A DNA stretch of 35,502 nt from a virus. A program made the position numbers and the translations under genes. The stretch is taken from IMG/VR virus record IMGVR_UViG_3300045988_120629, one strand, 5' to 3'. This document shows, one piece after another, positions 17,482 to 25,359 of this stretch. How positions within the stretch are numbered: position 1 is the stretch's first letter; the number at the start of each line of letters is the position of its first letter. Below the pieces are notes generated by a model, which saw nothing but the letters and a program-made list of their open reading frames with translations, made no database searches and was not told where the DNA came from.

Positions 17482-17721
17482 TTGGCAACAACCGGATATA
17501 ACACTATATCAAAAATAGTAGATATGACAAATCAGAAATTGTCCGAAATAGGTCAAAATATTCCGAACGCAACAACCGCCCATAATGAATATACCATTAC
17601 AATCAAACAGGATTTTAATAATAATATCACTGATGAAACGACTGCAATGGCGTACGGTAAATATGCGGGTAGTTCGGTAAAACGTTCAATTTCGGATGCA
17701 TTTTTGGGAGCGGAGGGCTAA
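17482..17721 (+). CDS. In-frame continuation of the tape measure ORF after a TAA stop (separate small protein or readthrough/nonsense-separated C-terminus)
   Basis: Same reading frame as 12475..17478, separated only by TAA (17476..17478) plus one codon. No RBS precedes TTG 17482 or ATG 17524. Confidence 0.35.
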   Translation: MATTGYNTISKIVDMTNQKLSEIGQNIPNATTAHNEYTITIKQDFNNNITDETTAMAYGKYAGSSVKRSISDAFLGAEG

Positions 17722-17724
17722 ACA

Positions 17725-18543
17725 ATGGGATTAACATATCGTGGTAAACATTCATTGCGTGATTTTGGTATGCAAACCAAAATCACCGATTTACCGATAA
17801 CACCGCCGAAAAAGACGGATTACGAGGAAGATATACCGTACAGGGACGGCAGCATAGATTTTTCAGAATCGGGCGGCAGGGTGTTTTACAAAGACAAAAC
17901 AATCGAAGTTGAATTTTATTTAATCTGCAACGATACCGCAAAACGTAATAAAACTATTGAACAGTTTGTAACGTGGATAAACGGCGGAAAAGGTGAGTTG
18001 ATTTTGGACGATATGCCGTTTACAAAGTGGATAGCGTCACCGATAACCGTGGAAGATATGACTATAATGCTACAACGAGCGGGAAAAACCGTTGTAGCAT
18101 TCAGATGTGAACCGTTTAATCAGTTCCTGTATGATACGCAGGGTATTCCGTTAGGCGCGGATATTCCGTTAGATACGGAAATTGAAATAGGTTGGCCGAT
18201 AAATCATATATATGAAATTGCCAACGGTACAAACACATTTAAACTAAACAATGCGGGAACTGCGGCGGTACGACCTAAGATAGTTTTCAACGGTAATTTT
18301 ACATCAGTATCGTTTACCTGCGGCGGAAACACAATAAAATATAATCACAAAACTACGCAATTCACAATCGATTGCGAATTATTCAGCTGCTTTGAGGGTG
18401 ACACCAACACGTCAGAATATTCAAACGGTGATTATATAGAAATCGGACAGGGTGAAAATGAAATAACAATACAGTCAAACGGAACGGGAACAGTCGAAAT
18501 TATTTATAATCCGCTGTTCTATTATACACAGTCGATTTTATAA
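17725..18543 (+). CDS. Distal tail protein (Dit, Sipho_tail family)
   Basis: N-terminus GLTYRGKHSLRDFGM, size 272 aa, RBS GGAGGG, and position after the TMP. Confidence 0.8.
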   Translation: MGLTYRGKHSLRDFGMQTKITDLPITPPKKTDYEEDIPYRDGSIDFSESGGRVFYKDKTIEVEFYLICNDTAKRNKTIEQFVTWINGGKGELILDDMPFTKWIASPITVEDMTIMLQRAGKTVVAFRCEPFNQFLYDTQGIPLGADIPLDTEIEIGWPINHIYEIANGTNTFKLNNAGTAAVRPKIVFNGNFTSVSFTCGGNTIKYNHKTTQFTIDCELFSCFEGDTNTSEYSNGDYIEIGQGENEITIQSNGTGTVEIIYNPLFYYTQSIL

Positions 18544-18559
18544 AACAGGAGGAAATACA

Positions 18560-20326
18560 ATGAATAAAATGATACGTATATACAGTTGCAATGAAACCGA
18601 TTTCAGTTCAAACGGTTTGGCAATTTTGGACGAGGCAAAGGACGTTTGTATTACACACGAATTAAACGGCAGCTACAATTTGCAATTTGAATATCCGATA
18701 GATTCGGCTAAATGGGAATTTATCGCAAACAACCGTATTTGTAGGGTAGGGAATGAATGTTTCCGTATTCGTTCTATTGATAATAATAAAATATACGCAC
18801 TGGCACTGTATATGGACGCACAATTTAAACATATTCAGTATATCGGTGATATGTTGGGAAAAACACCGCGTTATATTATGACACAGCTGTTTAAAAACAC
18901 CAATATACATATAATGACGGACGCAGAGGTAAAATCATTGGGAATGGAATGGGTGAACACCGCAACCGATTTTTTTGAGGCGTCGAAGATAACACCGATT
19001 GTCGGTGTGTCTACGCTGTCAGAAACATTAGAAAAACAATCGACAATGTGCGAATTATATGTAGATAATTATAATTTGGCACTGGTTAAACAAATCGGCA
19101 AGGACAACGGTAACGAATTAACATTACGTTTCAATGCAAAATCGGCTGAATCGTCACGTGACGCGTCTACGTTGATAACGCGACTATATCCATACGGACA
19201 GGACGATTTGGATATATCAACGGTCAATAACGGTAAACAGTATATAGACAGTCCTATGGTTGAAAAAATAGGTGTCTACGAGGGGTTCTCAAATTTTGAC
19301 GAATGCGAAGAACCGGACGAACTGTTAAAACTGGCAAAGTGGCAATTTTCAGAAGATAATTTAGAACGTATTGATATACCTAAATATACAATGACTGTCG
19401 GTTACGTTGATGTTTGCGAGGCGTACAAATATCATAATCTGAACAGGCCGAGCATTGGGGACAGGGTGAAAATTTTCGACAAGAGTATGAATACAAAAAC
19501 GCTGCAAAGAATTATAACAACAAAAATTTATCCGTTCGAGCCGAGGAAATCAACCATTGAAGTGGGACACCCGCAAGTCACTATTGATAGTTTTTTCAAG
19601 GATATTGCTACAACAAATATAATCCAAAAAATACAACGAAACGGCAAGAAAGAAATCAAGACAAGTTATTTGGAAATGATGAGAGAAAACGTCAAAGTCA
19701 GCATAAACGAGGCACTGCAGAATGAGAATATCGCCAAGTATCAGACCGGAGCATTGTTTGAAAGTCCCGACGGTCAAAGTGCTGTCGCAATAATTAAAGG
19801 TCAGTTGGCTATTGCAGGACAAAAAACCGAGGGTGAATGGGATTGGACAACGGTAATCAATGACAATGAAATAATTGTATCTGACGTGTTCACTGGTGCG
19901 TTGTATACAAACCTATGTACAATAATGTCTGCCAACGGCAAATTGACAATAGAAAACAGTTTAATAACAATGCAGGACGAAAATAATATTGTTAGATTTG
20001 AATGTGGTTATAAAAACGGTAAATATGTTTTTTGTTTGTATGACGCTACAGGCGAACAAAACGTGTATATAAATAGTAGCGGCGAGGCGGTATTTGCCGG
20101 AAAGATAACGTCACATAAATCGGCAGAACTGTACGGCGGTTTGACATTGGGTAGCGGAGCAGACAGTTGCATTACATTTATGGGACCTGTCAGAGCAGAG
20201 GGCAGTATTTCGGTAGTAGACCACGAAATGGACATCGATGCGAACTATGTAAGAATAAAAGGTATAGATGTAAAAAGCGAGTTTGACAAACTATGGCAAA
20301 CGATTAGCGAATTAAAAAATAAATAA
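18560..20326 (+). CDS. Tail-associated protein (Tal; Prophage_tail / minor structural protein N-terminal domain)
   Basis: RIYSCNETDFSSNGLAILDEA...ELNGSYNLQFEYP is typical of the Tal N-terminal domain. 588 aa, positioned after Dit. Confidence 0.8.
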   Translation: MNKMIRIYSCNETDFSSNGLAILDEAKDVCITHELNGSYNLQFEYPIDSAKWEFIANNRICRVGNECFRIRSIDNNKIYALALYMDAQFKHIQYIGDMLGKTPRYIMTQLFKNTNIHIMTDAEVKSLGMEWVNTATDFFEASKITPIVGVSTLSETLEKQSTMCELYVDNYNLALVKQIGKDNGNELTLRFNAKSAESSRDASTLITRLYPYGQDDLDISTVNNGKQYIDSPMVEKIGVYEGFSNFDECEEPDELLKLAKWQFSEDNLERIDIPKYTMTVGYVDVCEAYKYHNLNRPSIGDRVKIFDKSMNTKTLQRIITTKIYPFEPRKSTIEVGHPQVTIDSFFKDIATTNIIQKIQRNGKKEIKTSYLEMMRENVKVSINEALQNENIAKYQTGALFESPDGQSAVAIIKGQLAIAGQKTEGEWDWTTVINDNEIIVSDVFTGALYTNLCTIMSANGKLTIENSLITMQDENNIVRFECGYKNGKYVFCLYDATGEQNVYINSSGEAVFAGKITSHKSAELYGGLTLGSGADSCITFMGPVRAEGSISVVDHEMDIDANYVRIKGIDVKSEFDKLWQTISELKNK

Positions 20327-20328
20327 AA

Positions 20329-20352
20329 AGAATAGGGACATAGCCCTATTCT
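20329..20352 (-). terminator. Hairpin terminator between the convergent Tal gene and the minus-strand moron gene
   Basis: AGAATAGGG (20329..20337) pairs with CCCTATTCT (20344..20352). The U-run is present only for the minus-strand transcript (A-run 20321..20329). Confidence 0.65.
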
Positions 20353-20930
20353 GTAACACTATTTATAAACGGTAAGATTTTTGTGGTATATGAATCTAAT
20401 TCTATTAATCTGCGGTCAGTATTGCAACGTTTGATATTATCGACAACTACGTCAAGGGTTTCACTATCTATAATAATATCAGTGCCAAAGTGATAGGAAT
20501 GATTTGAATTATTCGCATTTAATTTATTCAGCATATACTGTATATCTGTTTCATCAATATATGCAACACCGTCAACGTATTCAATTTCTATGCCGTCACT
20601 GGTGTAGTCGTAACCGTCGTCACCTTTAACAATCGAAATTTGTGCGGGTGTAAATGACGGTAGCGGTGTGGGTGTTGGTTCGGCGGCGGTATCTGTATCA
20701 ATCGTAATAGTGTTGTCACTGAAACCGACATTGAAACCACCGACAGCGTCGGCAACGTCACGTAATTTGAAATATGTATTATCGTTGATGTTGTAACCCT
20801 CTATCGCTGTTTCCGTACCGTTTACGGCAACAGGGAACGGGTTAGCCGTTACTGCATATTCTACGGCGAAACCTGTCGCTGTCGCACAGATTATACCGCC
20901 TGTTATAAAACCTAATATAAATTTTTTCAT
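20346..20930 (-). CDS. Secreted or membrane-anchored protein with a copper-amine-oxidase-N-terminal-like (stalk) domain and an unknown C-terminal domain
   Basis: Internal ATG (20930) of track ORF 20346..21134, preceded by AAAGGAGG. Signal/anchor MKKFILGFITGGIICATATGF. VAVNGTETAIEGYNINDNTYFKLRDVADAVGGFNVGFSDNTITID matches the Cu_amine_oxidN1 pattern. A Pro/Thr linker EPTPTPLPSFTP follows. Confidence 0.7.
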   Translation of the reverse strand: MKKFILGFITGGIICATATGFAVEYAVTANPFPVAVNGTETAIEGYNINDNTYFKLRDVADAVGGFNVGFSDNTITIDTDTAAEPTPTPLPSFTPAQISIVKGDDGYDYTSDGIEIEYVDGVAYIDETDIQYMLNKLNANNSNHSYHFGTDIIIDSETLDVVVDNIKRCNTDRRLIELDSYTTKILPFINSVTE

Positions 20931-20954
20931 AGCTTGTAGCCTCCTTTTGTTTTT

Positions 20955-20983
20955 AATATATAATAATTTGTGCATTTTGTCAA
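20955..20983 (-). promoter_or_regulatory. Sigma-A-type promoter for the secreted-protein gene
   Basis: Minus strand: TTGACA (20983..20978), 17 nt, TATATT (20960..20955). Confidence 0.55.
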
Positions 20984-20990
20984 TATTTGT

Positions 20991-21019
20991 TTGACAATAC
21001 AGCATTAATATGGTAATAT
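20991..21019 (+). promoter_or_regulatory. Sigma-A-type promoter (extended -10) upstream of the abi gene
   Basis: TTGACA (20991..20996), 17 nt, TG-n-TAATAT (21011..21019). Confidence 0.6.
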
Positions 21020-21096
21020 AAAAATAAAAAGAAAAAAATTCTAAAAAACTATTGCTTTTTTTAAGCAGATAGAATATAATATAACGCATGAGATAG

Positions 21097-21151
21097 GCCT
21101 CAACACGCCTCTTCGCAATGCGAATGCGTACCATGTTGAGGCTGCTTTTTT
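21097..21151 (+). terminator. Intrinsic-terminator-like structure inside the abi 5' leader
   Basis: GCCTCAACA (21097..21105) pairs with TGTTGAGGC (21134..21142), followed by TGCTTTTTTATTTT. There is a nested palindrome TTCGCAaTGCGAA (21112..21124) and an upstream bulged hairpin at 21049..21072. Confidence 0.55.
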
Positions 21152-21167
21152 ATTTTAGGAGTATTGT

Positions 21168-22025
21168 ATGGAAATAAAAAGACCGACTACAATAGAAGAA
21201 CAAATAAAAATTTTAGGTGGTAGAAAGTTAGTTATTGAAGATGTTGAATTCGCTCAAAATGTACTTTTATCGGTAAATTATTATAATTTTACTGGTTATT
21301 TACATACATATAAAAATGCAGATGACAATTACGAAAACATTTCTTTTAATCAAGCGTATAGAATATATCTATGCGATAGACGTATTAGGTCTACTATATT
21401 ATACGCGATAGAGAGTATTGAACATAATTTAAAGACGAAAATCGCTTATGTAATAGCGATGAATACCTGTGCAACATCTTACTTAAACAAAGATATTTTC
21501 GTGGATGAAGAAGAACACCAAAAACTACTACAAAAATTTGGACAAGCAATAAATAGAAATAGTAAAATACCATTCGTAAAACATCACATAAAGAAATATG
21601 ACAGAAGATTTCCTATTTGGGTAGCTATTGAAATTTCTACCTTAGGAATGGTGTGGAATTGTTATAAAAATTTAAAGACACCTCTAAAAAAGAAGATTGC
21701 ATCAAAATTTAATATAGGTTCCGTTTATTTGGAGAGCTGGATTGAATGTATATCTTATTTACGAAATGTATGCGCACACTATATGAGGTTATATAGATTT
21801 AAGGTACAGAAGACACCTAAAAAGAGTAAAAAACATAGTATGAATAATATATCTCACTGCATATATGACATTATAAATGTAATGCGTTTTTTAATGCCAA
21901 GTAAAGATGAATGGAATAATTACATAATTTCTAATATTGCTCAAATCTTTGAAGAATATAAAGATGTTGTAAGTCCTGAAGATTATGGTTTTCCAAAGAA
22001 CTGGGAAAAAACTTTAACATTATAA
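21168..22025 (+). CDS. Abortive-infection protein, Abi_2 (AbiD/AbiF-like) family, HEPN-type
   Basis: N-terminus RPTTIEEQIKILGGRKLVIEDVEFAQNVLLSVNYYNFTGY and FPIWVAIEISTLGMVWNCY are typical of Abi_2. There is an Rx4H HEPN motif, RNVCAH (R codon at 21762). The gene is visibly more AT-rich than its neighbours. Confidence 0.85.
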   Translation: MEIKRPTTIEEQIKILGGRKLVIEDVEFAQNVLLSVNYYNFTGYLHTYKNADDNYENISFNQAYRIYLCDRRIRSTILYAIESIEHNLKTKIAYVIAMNTCATSYLNKDIFVDEEEHQKLLQKFGQAINRNSKIPFVKHHIKKYDRRFPIWVAIEISTLGMVWNCYKNLKTPLKKKIASKFNIGSVYLESWIECISYLRNVCAHYMRLYRFKVQKTPKKSKKHSMNNISHCIYDIINVMRFLMPSKDEWNNYIISNIAQIFEEYKDVVSPEDYGFPKNWEKTLTL

Positions 22026-22035
22026 TATTGAAATT

Positions 22036-22061
22036 AAGCACGTCTTACGGCGTGCTTTTTT
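22036..22061 (+). terminator. Rho-independent terminator after abi (copy 1 of a duplicated terminator)
   Basis: AAGCACG, loop, CGTGCTT, followed by TTTT. Confidence 0.75.
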
Positions 22062-22107
22062 CGTACCAAAAATGAGGTGACACAATGTACAGACGAATAC
22101 CACCATA

Positions 22108-22130
22108 GCACGCTTACGGCGTGTTTTTTT
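22108..22130 (+). terminator. Second, near-identical terminator (copy 2)
   Basis: GCACGC ttac GGCGTG followed by TTTTTTT. The flanks (..accaaaat) repeat those of copy 1. Confidence 0.7.
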
Positions 22131-22177
22131 AATACCAAAATCCCAATCAATTACGATTTTAAGGAAGGACTGATAAA

Positions 22178-24862
22178 ATGAAATTAAATTTTAATTTTAG
22201 CGGAAAAACGCTGTTAAAGGATTGGTGGAAGATTGTTCGTGATAATTTCACGGCAATTCAAACCGACCACAACACACTGTCCAATAAATTGGATACAGAA
22301 ATAACGCAACGCACCAACGCTGATGTAGGTTTGGCGGATAAAATCACAGCCGAAACCAAGGCGAGGGAAAGTACCGACAATACGTTACAAGGGAATATTG
22401 ACGCAGAGGCGAAAAACAGGCGGGTCGGTGACAGTGAATTGCGAGAACAAATTTTAACCGAACAGACAAACAGAACAAACGCCGACGATATACTGAACGG
22501 CGAGAAAGCTGATAAAACCGATTTGTATGGCAAGGAAACAGATGTTGTCCATACAATAACGCACAGTTTGGAAAAATCAGATTTATCTATAGACATTAAC
22601 ACGTCATACGGTGACGGCACAATAACGATAAACAGTTTGGCGGTGCAGACTAAAATCTTTTTGGACGGGAATTCAGCGATACAAACAGAGCCGATTTCAG
22701 CTTCTTTTTCTGCGGAAAAGGGCGAAGAAGGCGAAAAGTGGGTTAATTTGCTCTATGACCAATATACAGGTAAACTCGGATTAGAAGTTACAGAGCAACC
22801 CGAAGCGGGAAATGTTGCAAAGATAGCGGTAACATATATGAAAGCCGAAGTTGCCGAAATGTATGCGGGTCAACTGAAGTTTGACGGTATCAAAGATTTG
22901 AGAGCATTAAAAACAGACAATAAAAATTCGTTTTTGGCGGCGGTCAATGAAATTGCAACAAAACTGACAACTGAAATTTCGGACAGAGAGGGTGCAGAGC
23001 ATTCACTGACTGAAAAAATCATTACTGAAATTTCAGACCGACAGGCGGCGGACAACGAGTTGAAAGCAAAAATATCAGATATAAATACAGAACTGACAAC
23101 GGATAACCTGTTTTATGATTTATCTAAATACGTCAACAGTGACAACACATTAGTCACTGACGACAGCGGTGTACAGTATTTGTCATATTCGGGTTCGTTT
23201 GAAAACGGAGCGTATTTGTATCACAATTTTGTTGTTGATAATTTCCGCCGTAAACCGAAAACGGAAACCACATTAGAATTGACATTTGATGTGGCGTCAC
23301 GTCATATAGCTGGGGACGGTTGCGACAGTGGCGGTTTGAATATAGGCGAAACAGACGTATTGATTACATACACTGATACAACAACAGAAACATTCGGACA
23401 GTCATATTACACAGCAACCGATACAGGTGATAAAACAATCACGATAAACGGTACATCAGAAACGTATAAAACAACAAAATTTAAAATTGAAATCCCTGTA
23501 ACCAAAGAAATTAAATCAATTTCATTCCGAATTGTATCGGATAACTTTTATACAAACGGTGACCCGACGGGAAATGCGTGTAAACAGAAAACATTAATAC
23601 AGTCGGCTGTTTGTTATGATGATGAATGTGTAGCGGTATTACGTGATGATATTAACGCGAATACATCAAAAATTACTGCCAATACAACAAAAATCACCGA
23701 AATTGATAAAACAGTTACAGACATTGCAAAAAGTCAAATATTTGTCGTGTGTGACGGCGACCACGACGAATTAAAATTACAGGCGGCGATAGATAGCGCG
23801 CCGTATAAAAGTATTATATATCCTGTAGGTGAATTGTGCGTTATCACAAATGCAAATATGAAGTCGGGTTACGGAATGACGGGAACTAATAACGGTGTGG
23901 CAATTCCGTTGAAGGGCGGTATGTCGTTAGACGGTTCGATGTGCGATACAATTATGTTCAAAAACACAAATCCTGCTGAAAAACAGTATATTTTCCATTT
24001 GCCGGATGGCGCTAAAATGCAAAATGTAAAATTTACAGAGGACACGGACACTGTAACGGCGGACACGGTTAATCCGACAGTATTATCAGCGCAAAGTAGT
24101 TCACAGATAATATCCTGTACATTCTACGATATATTCAGTACACATCAATTCGGTGTATCAACGTTTGAAATGAGCAACGTTCTGTTTTTGAACAACGTCA
24201 TAGATACGTTCGCAGGTGCACCGGCAAATAATTTGACATACGAAATAAAAATCGCAGGCAATTCGTTTGTTATGGGTAACAAATTTTTGAATTTCACGCA
24301 AAAAGAACAATCGTTAGGATATATGCTACAGGCGTCAACCGTTATATTTGTAAACAATTATATGTCCGGTTTTACAAATTGCAGTATTGATATAGGCAAA
24401 AAAATAGTAGGCAATATATTTAAAACGTTTACTGATTGCAGTATCGATATAAATGGCGAAATTTCGGACAATGAATTTGCAGCAATTACACAGAACACAA
24501 AAACACCGTTTATATACACCAAGGGGATTACATTAATCAGCGGAAACAGAATGCCTGTTATAAAAATTAATTCCGAATATATCGATTTTATCGAATGCGG
24601 AAATTATGCCGTTATATGCGGAAATTATATGCACATTTCCGCAGGCCCTACGTCGGGACAGTGTAATCTAATATCAGCCAGCAGTCAGACGCTGATAGCA
24701 GATAATATATTTAGGACAACGGCGTCTGTAACGGCAAATGCAGATTTTTCAATTATATACAGCGACGGTAAAACAGTAGTCAAAAATAACGTGACAAACG
24801 CAACATCAATCGGAACGTTCGGCGATACGTGCGTTGTTGACGGAAATGTGACAGGGTGGTGA
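22178..24862 (+). CDS. Tail fibre / receptor-binding protein with coiled-coil shaft and a probable C-terminal parallel beta-helix
   Basis: 894 aa. N-terminal repeats of the R..AD..L type and a TEISDR duplication. The C-terminal third has periodic GN/DN-x-[FM] repeats (VGNIF, SDNEF, SGNRM, CGNYM, ADNIF, KNNV, DGNV). Confidence 0.7.
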   Translation: MKLNFNFSGKTLLKDWWKIVRDNFTAIQTDHNTLSNKLDTEITQRTNADVGLADKITAETKARESTDNTLQGNIDAEAKNRRVGDSELREQILTEQTNRTNADDILNGEKADKTDLYGKETDVVHTITHSLEKSDLSIDINTSYGDGTITINSLAVQTKIFLDGNSAIQTEPISASFSAEKGEEGEKWVNLLYDQYTGKLGLEVTEQPEAGNVAKIAVTYMKAEVAEMYAGQLKFDGIKDLRALKTDNKNSFLAAVNEIATKLTTEISDREGAEHSLTEKIITEISDRQAADNELKAKISDINTELTTDNLFYDLSKYVNSDNTLVTDDSGVQYLSYSGSFENGAYLYHNFVVDNFRRKPKTETTLELTFDVASRHIAGDGCDSGGLNIGETDVLITYTDTTTETFGQSYYTATDTGDKTITINGTSETYKTTKFKIEIPVTKEIKSISFRIVSDNFYTNGDPTGNACKQKTLIQSAVCYDDECVAVLRDDINANTSKITANTTKITEIDKTVTDIAKSQIFVVCDGDHDELKLQAAIDSAPYKSIIYPVGELCVITNANMKSGYGMTGTNNGVAIPLKGGMSLDGSMCDTIMFKNTNPAEKQYIFHLPDGAKMQNVKFTEDTDTVTADTVNPTVLSAQSSSQIISCTFYDIFSTHQFGVSTFEMSNVLFLNNVIDTFAGAPANNLTYEIKIAGNSFVMGNKFLNFTQKEQSLGYMLQASTVIFVNNYMSGFTNCSIDIGKKIVGNIFKTFTDCSIDINGEISDNEFAAITQNTKTPFIYTKGITLISGNRMPVIKINSEYIDFIECGNYAVICGNYMHISAGPTSGQCNLISASSQTLIADNIFRTTASVTANADFSIIYSDGKTVVKNNVTNATSIGTFGDTCVVDGNVTGW

Positions 24863-24866
24863 TATT

Positions 24867-25244
24867 ATGTACAAATTTTATATGAAAAACGGAACAGCAC
24901 AATTTTATGAACACGGTGTTGAAATTGACGGCACGGTGTACGGAATACAAAAAGATAGCGACATATTACGTATAAAACGCAGGATTGTCAATGATAAATT
25001 CGCTGAAACTGACGACAATTTCGATATGGACACAGAAATCGCAAAAATTCAGCATACGGACGTAACGTTGGAACAGCCAACTTCAGAACAACTGTCACAG
25101 ATACAGTCAAAAACATTTGACAGTATGTCGGATATGAAACAATATGTTCAGTCTGTTATGAACGGTGAGCTGACACAGGATGAAATCAACGCAATGCTGA
25201 TGTTACAGATTGCGGAACTGAAAGCAGGTGTTGGTGGTGAATAA
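24867..25244 (+). CDS. Hypothetical protein (fibre-associated, in an XkdW-like position)
   Basis: RBS GGGTGGTGA. Located between the fibre gene and the XkdX-like gene. No motif recognised. Confidence 0.5.
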   Translation: MYKFYMKNGTAQFYEHGVEIDGTVYGIQKDSDILRIKRRIVNDKFAETDDNFDMDTEIAKIQHTDVTLEQPTSEQLSQIQSKTFDSMSDMKQYVQSVMNGELTQDEINAMLMLQIAELKAGVGGE

Positions 25245-25359
25245 AGCGTTAATCAAGAAGTACTATCAAATGGGTATTTACAAAGAGAAACACCTTGACA
25301 TATTCGTCAAAGCGGGAGATATAACGAAAGCAGAAAAACGAGAGATTATGGAGGGTTAA
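25237..25359 (+). CDS. XkdX-family small protein (40 aa)
   Basis: Below the track cutoff. GTG at 25237 lies 6 nt after AGGTG. Hand translation: (M)NKALIKKYYQMGIYKEKHLDIFVKAGDITKAEKREIMEG, which fits the XkdX pattern (..FV..G.IT..E...I.G). Confidence 0.5.
   Translation: MNKALIKKYYQMGIYKEKHLDIFVKAGDITKAEKREIMEG

What the first reader, a model, noticed from the sequence alone, without database searches (positions are those of the whole stretch)
20329..22141. Self-contained defence/moron cassette inserted in the middle of the tail operon: HEPN Abi_2 gene plus a divergent secreted Cu-amine-oxidase-N-like protein
An insert of about 1.8 kb lies between the Tal gene (ends 20326) and the tail-fibre gene (starts 22178). 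It is visibly more AT-rich than the flanking structural genes and carries its own transcription signals.

- Two back-to-back consensus-like promoters: TTGACA-17-TATATT on the minus strand (20983..20955) and TTGACA-17-TGnTAATAT on the plus strand (20991..21019).
- Its own terminators at 20329..20352, 22036..22061 and 22108..22130.
- One arm encodes an Abi_2 (AbiD/AbiF-like) protein with the HEPN Rx4H motif RNVCAH.
- The other arm encodes a 194-aa signal-anchored protein. It has a copper-amine-oxidase-N-type stalk domain, a Pro/Thr linker and an unknown C-terminal domain.

A prophage-expressed abortive-infection RNase paired with a surface protein (a possible receptor-masking or superinfection-exclusion factor) would be a two-layer anti-phage cassette. 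Whether the two genes act together is unknown. The insert also places three terminators between Tal and the fibre gene, so fibre expression must rely on read-through, antitermination or an unrecognised promoter.
Basis: partly seen in the sequence, partly recalled or inferred. Interest (0 to 1): 0.7.

Follow-up and report, generated by a model that had tools for sequence, protein, structure and literature searches.

The report
Abi toxin slot beside tail-tip-matched gene
The 1.8 kb between two tail genes of this gut prophage is not one defence cassette: it holds a resident surface-protein gene matched to the phage's own tail tip, an exchangeable slot now carrying a known RNA-controlled abortive-infection toxin (AbiD/AbiF), and a resident control element for the tail-fibre gene.

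Summary
The genes, promoters, terminators and RNVCAH motif are at the stated coordinates. The "two-gene cassette" reading fails.

- **Surface protein is resident.** The 194-aa gene (20346-20930, minus) follows Tal in 58 of 63 related phage contigs, in either orientation, with its own promoter. Its variable C-terminal domain tracks the last ~75 residues of Tal, not AbiD or the fibre. It is most likely a tail-tip-matched superinfection-exclusion factor; this is inferred.
- **AbiD is cargo.** AbiD lies in an exchangeable slot (~20955-22084). The slot is empty in 12 of 47 related contigs. It holds HicAB in 14, small hydrophobic peptides in 6 and AbiD in 15. The AbiD segment is ~100% identical in DNA across phages with unrelated Tal genes.
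- **AbiD's partner is an RNA.** A divergent abiF-motif leader (21099-21141) ends in a terminator just before the gene. This matches the published AbiF/RCd22 system of Clostridioides difficile.
- **The last terminator is native.** Hairpin 22107-22125 overlaps the stop codon of a conserved mini-ORF, MYRRIPP* (22085-22108), upstream of the fibre gene in every relative examined here.

AbiD is an ordinary new member of a known family. The Tal-matched protein and the mini-ORF are the interesting parts.

The parts
18560..20326 (+). Tal (tail-tip) gene. Its last ~75 codons (about 20099-20323) are the hypervariable tip segment.
   Evidence: Pfam PF06605 and PF18994. Variability starts at about residue 425-500 within two Tal backbones.
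20329..20352 (-). Intrinsic terminator of the surface-protein gene. Its T-run lies on the minus strand only, and it overlaps that gene's stop codon.
   Evidence: Terminator scan; sequence.
20346..20930 (-). Resident gene for a 194-aa anchored surface protein. Residues 1-80 (membrane anchor plus a Cu_amine_oxidN1-like half-domain) are nearly invariant. A Pro/Thr linker follows, then a hypervariable C-terminal domain (about residues 95-194, bases 20349-20648).
20955..20983 (-). Promoter of the surface-protein gene (TTGACA-17-TATATT).
   Evidence: A promoter-like site lies at the same distance from the ATG in 35 distinct upstream sequences: 86% reach 9 of 12 matches against 26% of shuffles.
20955..22084 (.). 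Exchangeable cargo interval (hot spot), here filled by the AbiD module.
   Evidence: Comparison with empty sites and other cargo. About 100% nucleotide identity of this segment in phages with unrelated Tal and Dit.
20991..21019 (+). Upstream plus-strand promoter P1 (TTGACA-17-TGgTAATAT). It is a shared module that drives a 78-aa two-TM protein in L044/L045.
21052..21080 (+). Likely AbiD-proper promoter P2 (TTGCTT-17-TATAAT). Its -10 box sits at the same distance from the conserved leader as in the homologues L204 and L207.
   Evidence: sequence.
21088..21151 (+). AbiD leader RNA: conserved 5' ATGAGATAGG, then a divergent abiF motif (21099-21141) whose outer stem plus T-run (21146-21151) forms an intrinsic terminator just before the AbiD ribosome-binding site.
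   Evidence: Fold z = -4.2. RF03085 is the top hit at 19.9 bits, below the gathering score of 37. Homologue leaders score 28-44.7 bits. Alignment and covariation: 5 pairs with compensatory changes, 0 of 500 shuffles reach the score.
21168..22025 (+). AbiD/AbiF-type Abi_2 HEPN protein (285 aa; RNVCAH at residues 199-204).
22036..22061 (+). Terminator at the right end of the cargo module. Together with the following TTTCGTACCAAAAATGAGGTGACA, it ends every cargo type that was read through to this junction, including HicAB, the 78-aa protein and the L076 cargo. A shorter, related form ends the L013 and L017 inserts.
22085..22108 (+). Conserved mini-ORF MYRRIPP* with its own ribosome-binding site (GAGGTG). 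Its TAG stop codon overlaps the start of the next hairpin.
   Evidence: Found in 44 of the loci held at that stage, as M[Y/P/H]xxIPP* with ATG or TTG starts; the Pro-codon changes are synonymous. In IMG/VR, 82 of 100 pattern matches carry the complete element and 79 precede the fibre start.
22107..22132 (+). Native intrinsic terminator in the fibre-gene leader.
   Evidence: Consensus hairpin of 8 pairs with one compensatory pair (CG to UA in 4 sequences).
22178..24862 (+). Fibre-like gene (894 aa) with a conserved N-terminus. It has no Pfam or PHROG family.

Best explanation
The Tal-fibre interval is a composite of three independent units.

**(1) A resident surface protein matched to the tail tip.** The gene sits at the 3' end of Tal and has its own sigma-70-type promoter and terminator. 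The protein is N-in/C-out: a membrane anchor, a Cu_amine_oxidN1-like half-domain, a Pro/Thr linker and a variable C-terminal domain. That C-terminal domain is matched to the C-terminal tip of the phage's own Tal. Most likely the lysogen displays it, and it blocks phages carrying the same Tal tip. It would do so either by binding the incoming tip or by masking what the tip binds. The function is inferred.

**(2) An exchangeable slot, now holding an AbiD/AbiF module.** The slot lies between that gene's ribosome-binding site and the fibre leader. Cargo is swapped by homologous recombination between the conserved flanks. The present cargo is a HEPN RNase toxin preceded by a single abiF-motif RNA whose stem is also a terminator. 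By analogy with AbiF(Cd)/RCd22, most transcripts should stop there. The short RNA should bind and neutralise the protein, as in a type III toxin-antitoxin system, until infection or stress releases it.

**(3) A resident fibre-gene leader.** A 7-codon ORF ends in Ile-Pro-Pro-stop, and its stop codon overlaps a terminator hairpin. A ribosome lingering at Pro-Pro-stop would cover the 5' arm of the hairpin and allow read-through into the fibre gene. Untranslated read-through from the lysogenic promoters would terminate. This mechanism is inferred.
For: **Synteny and independence**
- Tal, the small gene and the fibre are adjacent, without AbiD, in phages whose Tal is only ~30% identical.
- L073, a near-identical relative (Tal 99% over residues 1-520), has an empty slot.
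- Slot occupancy in 47 distinct contigs: 12 empty, 14 in the 800-830-nt class (HicAB confirmed in those inspected), 5 with small peptides, 1 other, 15 AbiD.
- The AbiD segment is ~100% identical in nucleotides across unrelated Tal backbones. The flanks are 89-99% identical.
- When loci were collected by Tal rather than by the small gene, 58 of 63 carry the small-gene family within 800 nt of the Tal stop.

**Matching to the Tal tip**
- Convergent group, 49 unique Tal/small pairs giving 1176 comparisons:

| Tal C-terminus | Small C-domain | Comparisons |
|---|---|---|
| >=80% identical | >=80% | 89 |
| >=80% | <80% | 2 |
| <80% | >=80% | 8 (all borderline) |
| <80% | <80% | 1077 |

  By contrast, 342 comparisons have Tal N-terminus >=80% but small C-domain <80%.
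- In the co-directional group the conserved N-module lies between the two variable parts. The correlation is still r = 0.91 with the Tal C-terminus and 0.07 with mid-Tal.
- The small C-domain does not follow the fibre. L035 has small 100% and fibre 41% identical; L059 has small 59% and fibre 96%.
- The pair alone was copied into an integrase/primase element.

**Own promoter.** A promoter-like site is present in every arrangement.

**AbiD and its RNA.**, and PMC12373285.

**Mini-ORF and terminator.**. The principle that a translating ribosome prevents terminator hairpins, and that polyproline affects this, is in PMC5021804.
Against: - No expression or phenotype data exist for any part.
- The co-variation could be plain linkage, because the segments lie within ~0.6 kb. 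One partial recombinant (L349) exists. The pairwise counts are not phylogenetically independent.
- The C-domain model is confident (pLDDT about 90-96) but matches no known fold in PDB or BFVD. There is no similarity to known exclusion proteins.
- In half of the phages the gene runs in the same direction as the tail operon, so late or structural expression cannot be excluded.
- The abiF match in the window is below Rfam's threshold (19.9 against 37 bits) because of a 6-nt larger loop than in the aligned homologue leaders.
- The mini-ORF region is also highly conserved as DNA, so coding selection rests on few substitutions.
Confidence: 0.7

Rival explanations
1. One reading: AbiD and the surface protein are one self-contained, co-acting two-layer defence cassette inserted as a unit.
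For: They are adjacent and divergently transcribed from back-to-back promoters only 7 nt apart. In the window-type module the promoter of the small gene is supplied by the same sequence block as P1.
Against: The small gene is present without AbiD in 32 of 47 contigs. It also occurs in co-directional phages and in the L006 element. AbiD homologues occur alone. GC content separates the two genes. The same promoter block also serves a different cargo in L044/L045.
Confidence: 0.05
2. The small protein is not an exclusion factor. It is a tail-tip assembly, maturation or structural partner of the Tal C-terminus, or it acts late in infection, for example to stop progeny phage sticking to debris.
For: It is adjacent to Tal in nearly all cases (58 of 63) and co-varies with the Tal C-terminus. 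It runs in the same direction as Tal, 61 nt downstream, in 30 loci. It travels with Tal into the L006 element.
Against: It has a Sec-type N-terminal anchor and a predicted extracytoplasmic domain, whereas tails assemble in the cytoplasm. It has its own consensus promoter and terminator in both orientations. It is antisense to the operon in the window. Its N-module is shared with many host surface proteins carrying unrelated C-domains.
Confidence: 0.2
3. The AbiD module, like the HicAB and small-peptide cargo, serves mainly as an addiction or stabilisation toxin-antitoxin module for the prophage rather than as a defence against other phages.
For: Every identified cargo of this slot is of toxin-antitoxin type: AbiD with its RNA, HicA/HicB, and short hydrophobic peptides. 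PMC12373285 reports that anti-phage activity of AbiF(Cd) could not be shown and proposes a role in prophage maintenance.
Against: Lactococcal AbiD, AbiD1 and AbiF confer phage resistance (cited in PMC12373285). PADLOC classes the protein as AbiD. The two roles are not exclusive.
Confidence: 0.3
4. The element GAATACCNCCNTAGCAC is a conserved RNA or DNA signal rather than a translated leader peptide. It could be part of the terminator, a processing site or a protein-binding site.
For: The stretch is almost invariant at the nucleotide level across loci, and only a few positions vary.
Against: A Shine-Dalgarno sequence lies at the right spacing in every variant, although the upstream sequences are unrelated. 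Start codons are ATG or TTG. All changes in the Pro codons are synonymous, while codons 2-4 vary freely.
Confidence: 0.3

Closest known systems
AbiF(Cd)/RCd22 of the Clostridioides difficile phi027 prophage (Saunier et al. 2025, PMC12373285); lactococcal AbiD/AbiD1/AbiF
   Same: An Abi_2 protein with an R-polar-xxx-H HEPN motif (RNQCAH there, RNVCAH here). It is prophage-borne. A sigma-A-type promoter drives a short structured RNA with an abiF motif (RF03085), then a Rho-independent terminator, then the ribosome-binding site and abi gene.
   Different: Here there is one motif instead of two, and its outer stem is itself the terminator stem. The inner loop is enlarged, so the Rfam score is below threshold. 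The location is a slot between tail-tip and fibre genes rather than the lysis module. Neither toxicity nor RNA binding was tested.
Exclusion proteins encoded next to receptor-binding genes: T5 Llp (beside pb5) and phi80/N15 Cor (beside tail-fibre genes); the lipoprotein Ltp of Streptococcus phage TP-J34 (own knowledge)
   Same: A small envelope-anchored protein encoded beside the tail-tip or receptor-binding gene, expressed from its own promoter, with specificity that follows the phage's own adsorption apparatus.
   Different: No sequence or fold similarity was found. It is a type-II-anchored or secreted protein of Gram-positive Clostridia, not a lipoprotein. It co-varies with the Tal C-terminus rather than with a dedicated receptor-binding protein. 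Its function is untested.
Defence and moron hot spots of temperate phages and satellites, for example P2/P4 hot spots and mycobacteriophage central regions (own knowledge; hot-spot survey 10.1101/2024.10.15.618418 listed, not read)
   Same: Fixed conserved flanks, empty and variously filled states, and cargo with its own promoter and terminator.
   Different: The slot lies inside the late tail operon, directly before a leader-controlled fibre gene. All identified cargo is of toxin-antitoxin or Abi type.
Leader-peptide transcription attenuators, such as pyrBI-type coupling of translation to terminator formation (own knowledge); effects of polyproline and EF-P on intrinsic terminators (PMC5021804)
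   Same: A short translated ORF directly overlapping an intrinsic terminator upstream of the regulated gene.
   Different: The ORF has only 7 codons. The conserved part is Ile-Pro-Pro-stop, with the stop codon overlapping the 5' end of the hairpin. It lies in a phage fibre-gene leader. No experiment exists.
Cu_amine_oxidN1 (PF07833) domain proteins of Firmicutes cell envelopes
   Same: An N-terminal anchor followed by a VNG...TYxxLRxxAxAxG...V motif. Positional homologues match the family (L341 46.8 bits; L090 and L179 18-20 bits).
   Different: The window protein itself does not match. Only about half a domain is recognisable. The AF2 model of that part is of low confidence.

Membership tests
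Abi_2 / AbiD-AbiF (PF07751; PADLOC AbiD) | Full-length match to the family profile above the curated threshold | tested here: met
   Pfam 168.8 bits against a cut-off of 25.6. PADLOC AbiD 287 bits over positions 2-276 of 277. phrog_2158 at 1.8e-61.
Abi_2 / AbiD-AbiF (PF07751; PADLOC AbiD) | HEPN catalytic motif R-[N/H/D]-xxx-H | tested here: met
   RNVCAH at 199-204. R199, N200, A203, H204 and R207 are invariant in alignment A2.
Abi_2 / AbiD-AbiF (PF07751; PADLOC AbiD) | Upstream abiF-motif ncRNA (RF03085) ending in a terminator before the gene | tested here: inconclusive
   RF03085 is the top hit at 21099-21141 and covers the whole model, but scores 19.9 bits against a gathering score of 37. 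The sequence aligns with leaders of homologues scoring 28-44.7 bits. The structure is supported by covariation. A T-run follows.
Abi_2 / AbiD-AbiF (PF07751; PADLOC AbiD) | Toxicity or RNase activity neutralised by the RNA; phage-resistance phenotype | not testable with these tools
   Needs cloning, expression and phage challenge.
Cu_amine_oxidN1 (PF07833) | Profile match of the 194-aa protein | tested here: not met
   No hit at E<=10. hhalign against a PF07833 protein gives probability 34%. Relatives sharing the N-module score below threshold (L090 and L179, 18-20 bits); only the positional homologue next to Tal passes (L341, 46.8 bits).
Exclusion proteins encoded beside the adsorption apparatus (Llp/Cor/Ltp-like, by function) | Envelope targeting signal | tested here: met
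   MKK followed by a hydrophobic stretch at residues 5-23 (KD 1.88). AF2 predicts a helix at 2-18. There is no lipobox. This is prediction only.
Exclusion proteins encoded beside the adsorption apparatus (Llp/Cor/Ltp-like, by function) | Expression independent of the late operon | tested here: inconclusive
   A consensus-like promoter sits at a fixed distance in 35 distinct upstream sequences, in both orientations, and the gene has its own terminator. No transcript data.
Exclusion proteins encoded beside the adsorption apparatus (Llp/Cor/Ltp-like, by function) | Specificity that follows the phage's own tail tip or receptor-binding protein | tested here: met
   The C-domain tracks the Tal C-terminal 75 aa in both the convergent and the co-directional arrangement. 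Linkage is not excluded.
Exclusion proteins encoded beside the adsorption apparatus (Llp/Cor/Ltp-like, by function) | Homology to a known exclusion protein | tested here: not met
   No PADLOC, PHROG or Pfam hit, and no Foldseek hit in PDB or BFVD.
Exclusion proteins encoded beside the adsorption apparatus (Llp/Cor/Ltp-like, by function) | Exclusion phenotype | not testable with these tools
   Needs a host and phage assay.
Prophage accessory-gene hot spot | Conserved flanks, with empty and alternatively filled states | tested here: met
Leader-peptide transcription attenuator | Short ORF with a ribosome-binding site, overlapping an intrinsic terminator upstream of the regulated gene | tested here: met
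Leader-peptide transcription attenuator | Translation-dependent control of termination | not testable with these tools
   Needs reporter fusions or ribosome profiling.

The most novel reading that the evidence does not exclude
The C-terminal tip of Tal and the C-terminal ectodomain of the adjacent anchored protein form a co-evolving specificity pair. This would be a self-type exclusion or immunity system of Gram-positive gut siphophages. The two-part module is exchanged among Tal backbones and has been captured, as exactly Tal plus partner, by a very abundant integrase/primase/sigma element that looks like a satellite. In addition, the fibre gene downstream is gated by a Pro-Pro-stop leader peptide that overlaps a terminator.
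Probability: 0.4. Interest if true: 0.7.

Novelty: new variant of a known kind. Interest (0 to 1): 0.5.

Why it matters
- **AbiD.** It adds a tail-operon example to the recently described RNA-controlled AbiF systems. Here a single abiF motif can itself act as the terminator.
- **A tractable cargo slot.** The locus defines a precisely bounded, recombination-driven slot for toxin-antitoxin and Abi cargo in a large group of human-gut Clostridia phages.
- **An uncharacterised surface-protein family.** It is present in about 90% of these phages, and its variable domain is matched to the tail tip.
  - If it is an exclusion or immunity factor, it gives a direct handle on what the Tal tip recognises in hosts that are hard to culture.
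  - It would also help explain how lysogens partition phage types in the gut.
- **The mini-ORF.** It offers a simple, testable case of translation-gated read-through into a late structural gene.

Tried and rejected
- Megablast of 17700-25300 against GenBank phages found no match. tblastn of the small protein and of its L341 homologue against the same collection gave only weak domain-level hits, so no cultured phage carries the family.
- Rfam at gathering threshold (whole window) and at E<=1 (1.9 kb) found nothing. The abiF hit appeared only when the search space was narrowed.
- PDB sequence searches with Tal and with the small-protein profile gave nothing meaningful.
- Foldseek of the AF2 model against PDB and BFVD gave no hit better than E = 0.1.
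- Alignment A2 was too divergent for a locus scan, so the closer set A3 was used.
- The cluster look-up gave no organism names, so the host is known only as uncultured Clostridia or Lachnospiraceae-like.
- The small C-domain has no paralogue elsewhere in the window, including Tal and the fibre.
- Literature searches found no paper on this protein family.
- I considered and rejected a lipoprotein: there is no lipobox.
- I considered and rejected coupling to the fibre: L035 and L059 are discordant.


Full report
**Context**

The window is a temperate siphophage. It encodes TerL, portal, capsid, a 1670-aa tape measure, Dit (17725-18543), Tal (18560-20326), a fibre-like 894-aa ORF (22178-24862), an r1t-type holin, an Amidase_2 endolysin, a large serine recombinase and an HTH repressor. 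Near-identical contigs come from human-gut metagenomes. No GenBank phage matches at the DNA level.

**Checking the observation**

The stated features are there.
- The minus-strand ORF 20346-20930 encodes 194 aa behind a GGAGG ribosome-binding site. AbiD is 21168-22025.
- The two divergent promoters are the best-scoring sites on their strands in a 9-kb scan: 20983..20955 at 11 of 12, and 20991..21019 at 10 of 12 with TG. Promoter-like matches are common in this AT-rich DNA, however: 47 were found against 35 +/- 6 in shuffles.
- The hairpins at 20329-20352, 22036-22057 and 22107-22125 are found.
- AbiD matches Pfam Abi_2 (2e-49), PADLOC AbiD (4e-86, full length) and phrog_2158.
- RNVCAH is at residues 199-204. 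R199, N200, A203, H204 and R207 are invariant across 19 homologues down to 26% identity.

Four corrections apply.
- Only the AbiD part is AT-rich (GC 0.275-0.28). The small gene has the GC content of its neighbours.
- Hairpin 20329-20352 has its T-run on the minus strand only. It terminates the small gene and does not stop Tal transcripts.
- The 194-aa protein has no Pfam, PADLOC or PHROG hit, even at E<=10.
- Several elements were missed; they are described below.

**The small gene is a resident of the Tal 3' end, not AbiD's partner**

Its family has more than 300 members, none annotated.
- In phages whose Tal, Dit and tape measure are only ~25-35% identical to the window's, the order is Tal, convergent small gene, ~160 nt, fibre. 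AbiD is absent.
- In 64 loci the two stop codons lie 3-58 nt apart.
- When loci were collected by Tal instead (80 IMG/VR loci out of 437 hits), 58 of the 63 with enough sequence carry a family member within 800 nt of the Tal stop. In 28 it is convergent. In 30 it runs in the same direction, 60-81 nt after Tal.
- In the co-directional phages that short gap contains a strong promoter: TTTACA-17-TGgTACAAT or TTGACA-18-TGgTAATAT. The gene is followed by its own terminator.
- Over 35 distinct upstream sequences, a promoter-like site sits at a constant distance from the ATG. Of these, 86% reach 9 of 12 matches against 26% of shuffles, and 43% reach 10 of 12 against 3%.

**Architecture of the small protein**

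- Residues 1-80 are nearly invariant: MKK, a hydrophobic helix, then a VNG...YNINDxTYFKLRDVAxAVGGF motif. A Pro/Thr linker follows, and the last ~100 residues are hypervariable.
- AF2 models the C-domain with pLDDT about 90-96 and the N-part poorly. Foldseek finds no relative in PDB or BFVD.
- The Cu_amine_oxidN1 idea holds only transitively.
  - hhalign against a PF07833 protein gives probability 34%.
  - Homologues L090 and L179 score 18-20 bits, below the cut-off of 24.2.
  - The co-directional positional homologue in L341 scores 46.8 bits.
- The same N-module heads many host proteins with other C-domains: alpha/beta hydrolase, PepSY and lipocalin-like. Some rabbit-gut Clostridia MAGs carry more than ten copies per genome. 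It therefore looks like a generic surface-display anchor.

**The variable domain follows the Tal tip**

Convergent group: 49 unique Tal/small pairs give 1176 comparisons.

| Tal C-terminal 75 aa | Small C-domain | Comparisons |
|---|---|---|
| >=80% identical | >=80% | 89 |
| >=80% | <80% | 2 |
| <80% | >=80% | 8 (borderline: Tal C-terminus 72-79%) |
| <80% | <80% | 1077 |

- By contrast, 342 comparisons have Tal N-terminus >=80% but small C-domain <80%.
- There are 9 Tal N-terminal types, 14 Tal C-terminal types and 18 small C-domain types. Tal variability begins around residue 425-500.
- L059 carries the same tip/partner module (83% and 86%) on a Tal backbone only 44% identical.
- In the co-directional phages the conserved N-module (92-100% identical) lies between the two variable segments. 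The small C-domain still correlates with the Tal C-terminus (r = 0.91) and not with mid-Tal (r = 0.07). One partial recombinant, L349, exists.
- The small C-domain does not follow the fibre. L035 has small 100% and fibre 41% identical; L059 has small 59% and fibre 96%.
- These counts are not phylogenetically independent, and the segments are closely linked. Coupling is therefore strongly suggested but not proven.
- A separate observation points the same way. A very common ~12-kb element carries integrase, repressor, primase/DUF927 and a sigma factor. Its DNA homology to these phages covers exactly Tal plus the small gene (L006 7966-10361, 88-93% identity).

**AbiD is cargo of an exchangeable slot**

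Between the small gene's ribosome-binding site and the fibre leader, 47 distinct contigs show the following.

| Distance from small-gene ATG to mini-ORF | Content | Contigs |
|---|---|---|
| 61-84 nt | Empty; includes L073, whose Tal is 99% identical to the window's over residues 1-520 | 12 |
| 408-467 nt | Tiny hydrophobic ORFs in L013 and L017; a 78-aa two-TM protein in L044/L045; no ORF resolved in L033 | 5 |
| 723 nt | Several small ORFs | 1 |
| 800-830 nt | HicA/HicB in those inspected; includes L035 (Tal and small protein 100% identical) | 14 |
| 1154-1157 nt | AbiD | 15 |

- The AbiD segment is ~100% identical in DNA in phages with no detectable nucleotide similarity in Dit or Tal. The flanks are conserved at 89-99%: the small-gene 5' end on one side, the fibre leader and N-terminus on the other. 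Exchange by homologous recombination in these flanks is the simplest mechanism.
- Every cargo type read through to its right end finishes with the same terminator and junction: AAGCAC...GTGCTT followed by TTTCGTACCAAAAATGAGGTGACA. The L013 and L017 inserts end with a shorter, related form.
- The window-type left end, which contains both back-to-back promoters, is shared with the L044/L045 cargo.
- This AbiD allele (99-100% identical, 307 cluster members) occurs only at this slot in IMG/VR. The next relatives are <=63% identical.
- Homologues of 56-59% identity are single genes. One is in a chromosome and one is in the lysogeny module of another prophage. Neither has a small-protein neighbour.

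**AbiD's partner is an RNA**

- Between the promoters and the ribosome-binding site the leader folds with z = -4.2.
- It is conserved in the 56-59% homologues: a -10 TATAAT, then ATGAGATAGGyCTCrAC.CGCCTCTT...GCGTACCATGTyGrGGC and a T-run. In those homologues a consensus promoter sits directly upstream. This points to 21052-21080 as AbiD's own promoter.
- A narrowed Rfam scan gives RF03085 (abiF RNA) as the top hit at 21099-21141. It covers the whole model but scores 19.9 bits, below the gathering score of 37.
- The same motif scores 28-44.7 bits at the same position upstream of nine other homologues.
- In a ten-sequence alignment the core CGCCTCT...GCGTACCA is invariant. The outer stem shows compensatory changes in 5 pairs. 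Of all cells, 89% are paired, and 0 of 500 shuffles reach the covariation score. Slid controls fall to 24-46% paired.
- This matches the published AbiF(Cd)/RCd22 system. There a SigA promoter drives an RNA with abiF motifs, followed by a Rho-independent terminator and then abiF. The RNA binds and neutralises the toxin, and R202 and H207 are required (PMC12373285).
- The differences here: there is one motif, not two, and its stem is itself the terminator stem.

**The last terminator is native and comes with a mini-ORF**

- In all relatives examined here, with or without cargo, the fibre gene is preceded by four elements in order: a Shine-Dalgarno sequence; a 7-codon ORF; a hairpin that begins in the TAG stop codon; and a T-run. 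In the window the ORF is MYRRIPP* at 22085-22108.
- Variants are MYRRIPP, MYKGIPP, MYTGIPP, MYNGIPP, MPRRIPP and MHRGIPP, with ATG or TTG starts. The Pro codons change only synonymously.
- The hairpin is an 8-pair consensus with one compensatory pair.
- In IMG/VR, 82 of 100 matches to GAATACCNCCNTAGCAC carry the complete element, and 79 of them precede the conserved fibre start.
- I infer that a ribosome lingering at Pro-Pro-stop covers the 5' arm of the hairpin and allows read-through. Untranslated read-through from the lysogenic promoters would be stopped twice. The general principle is documented in PMC5021804. The specific mechanism is untested.
- On the plus strand, late transcripts therefore meet three terminators: the abiF hairpin, the cargo terminator and the leader terminator.

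**Verdict**

- AbiD is a routine new member of a known family, sitting in a well-defined toxin-antitoxin/Abi cargo slot.
- The "two-layer cassette" is not supported.
- The parts worth follow-up are the Tal-tip-matched surface-protein family and the Pro-Pro-stop leader of the fibre gene.

Noticed in passing
L006 7966-10361 (also L007-L011, L060, L062): A ~12-kb element carries integrase, HTH repressor, DnaG-type primase plus DUF927, a sigma-70 factor, Lar and HIRAN genes, and no other structural genes. Its DNA homology to phages covers exactly Tal plus the small gene (88-93%). The small protein of this element (P0056) is listed in 1579 blocks of the collection. It may be a satellite that brings its own tail tip and matching partner.
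   Followed up: partly
window 22085-22132: A conserved mini-ORF, MYRRIPP*, has a TAG stop codon that overlaps the start of an intrinsic terminator just upstream of the fibre gene. It is present in all related phages examined and is tied to this fibre family.
   Followed up: partly
L119-L151 and others (rabbit-gut Clostridia MAGs): The invariant N-terminal module (anchor plus Cu_amine_oxidN1-like half-domain) heads 245-255-aa, ~294-aa and ~411-aa proteins with unrelated C-domains (alpha/beta hydrolase, PepSY, lipocalin-like). Some genomes carry more than ten copies. tblastn with the window's Tal found no Tal next to them.
   Followed up: partly
L013, L017, L076; L044/L045 (the slot between the small gene and the fibre leader): Alternative cargo consists of very short hydrophobic ORFs, for example MSEITINLILILLIVWIIKK and MQILTLVISIIAIIISIAALVNVCKK, and a 78-aa two-TM protein under the same promoter block as AbiD. 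These look like type I toxins.
   Followed up: no
L217 and L218, 318-430: A drum RNA (RF02958, 85.7 bits) lies ~170 nt upstream of AbiD homologues of 37% identity. No abiF motif was detected upstream of these two genes.
   Followed up: no
window 22133-22165; L012-L016 equivalents: Between the leader terminator and the fibre ribosome-binding site, relatives carry a perfect palindrome, AATCCCAATCGATTGGGATT. It could be an operator or a second hairpin. It is degenerate in the window (AATCCCAATCAATTACGATT).
   Followed up: no
window 21049-21072: A hairpin, CTATTGCTT-TTTTT-AAGCAGATAG, lies between the upstream promoter P1 and the AbiD-proper promoter P2. Its role is unknown.
   Followed up: no
window ~20230-20323 and equivalents in the loci: All Tal C-terminal types end in a ~25-residue heptad-like helix, for example DKLWQTISELKNK and LKAQIHEIEKKIAGLES. 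The small proteins also end in a conserved helix, ...IP.D.Y.ST..P.IN.L.
   Followed up: no
L019/L084/L152 (small gene at 10001-10579 in L019 and 7001-7579 in L084/L152): A further arrangement has Tal and the small gene in the same direction, followed by ~4.5 kb of other genes before the fibre-like N-terminus. The slot can therefore be much larger.
   Followed up: no
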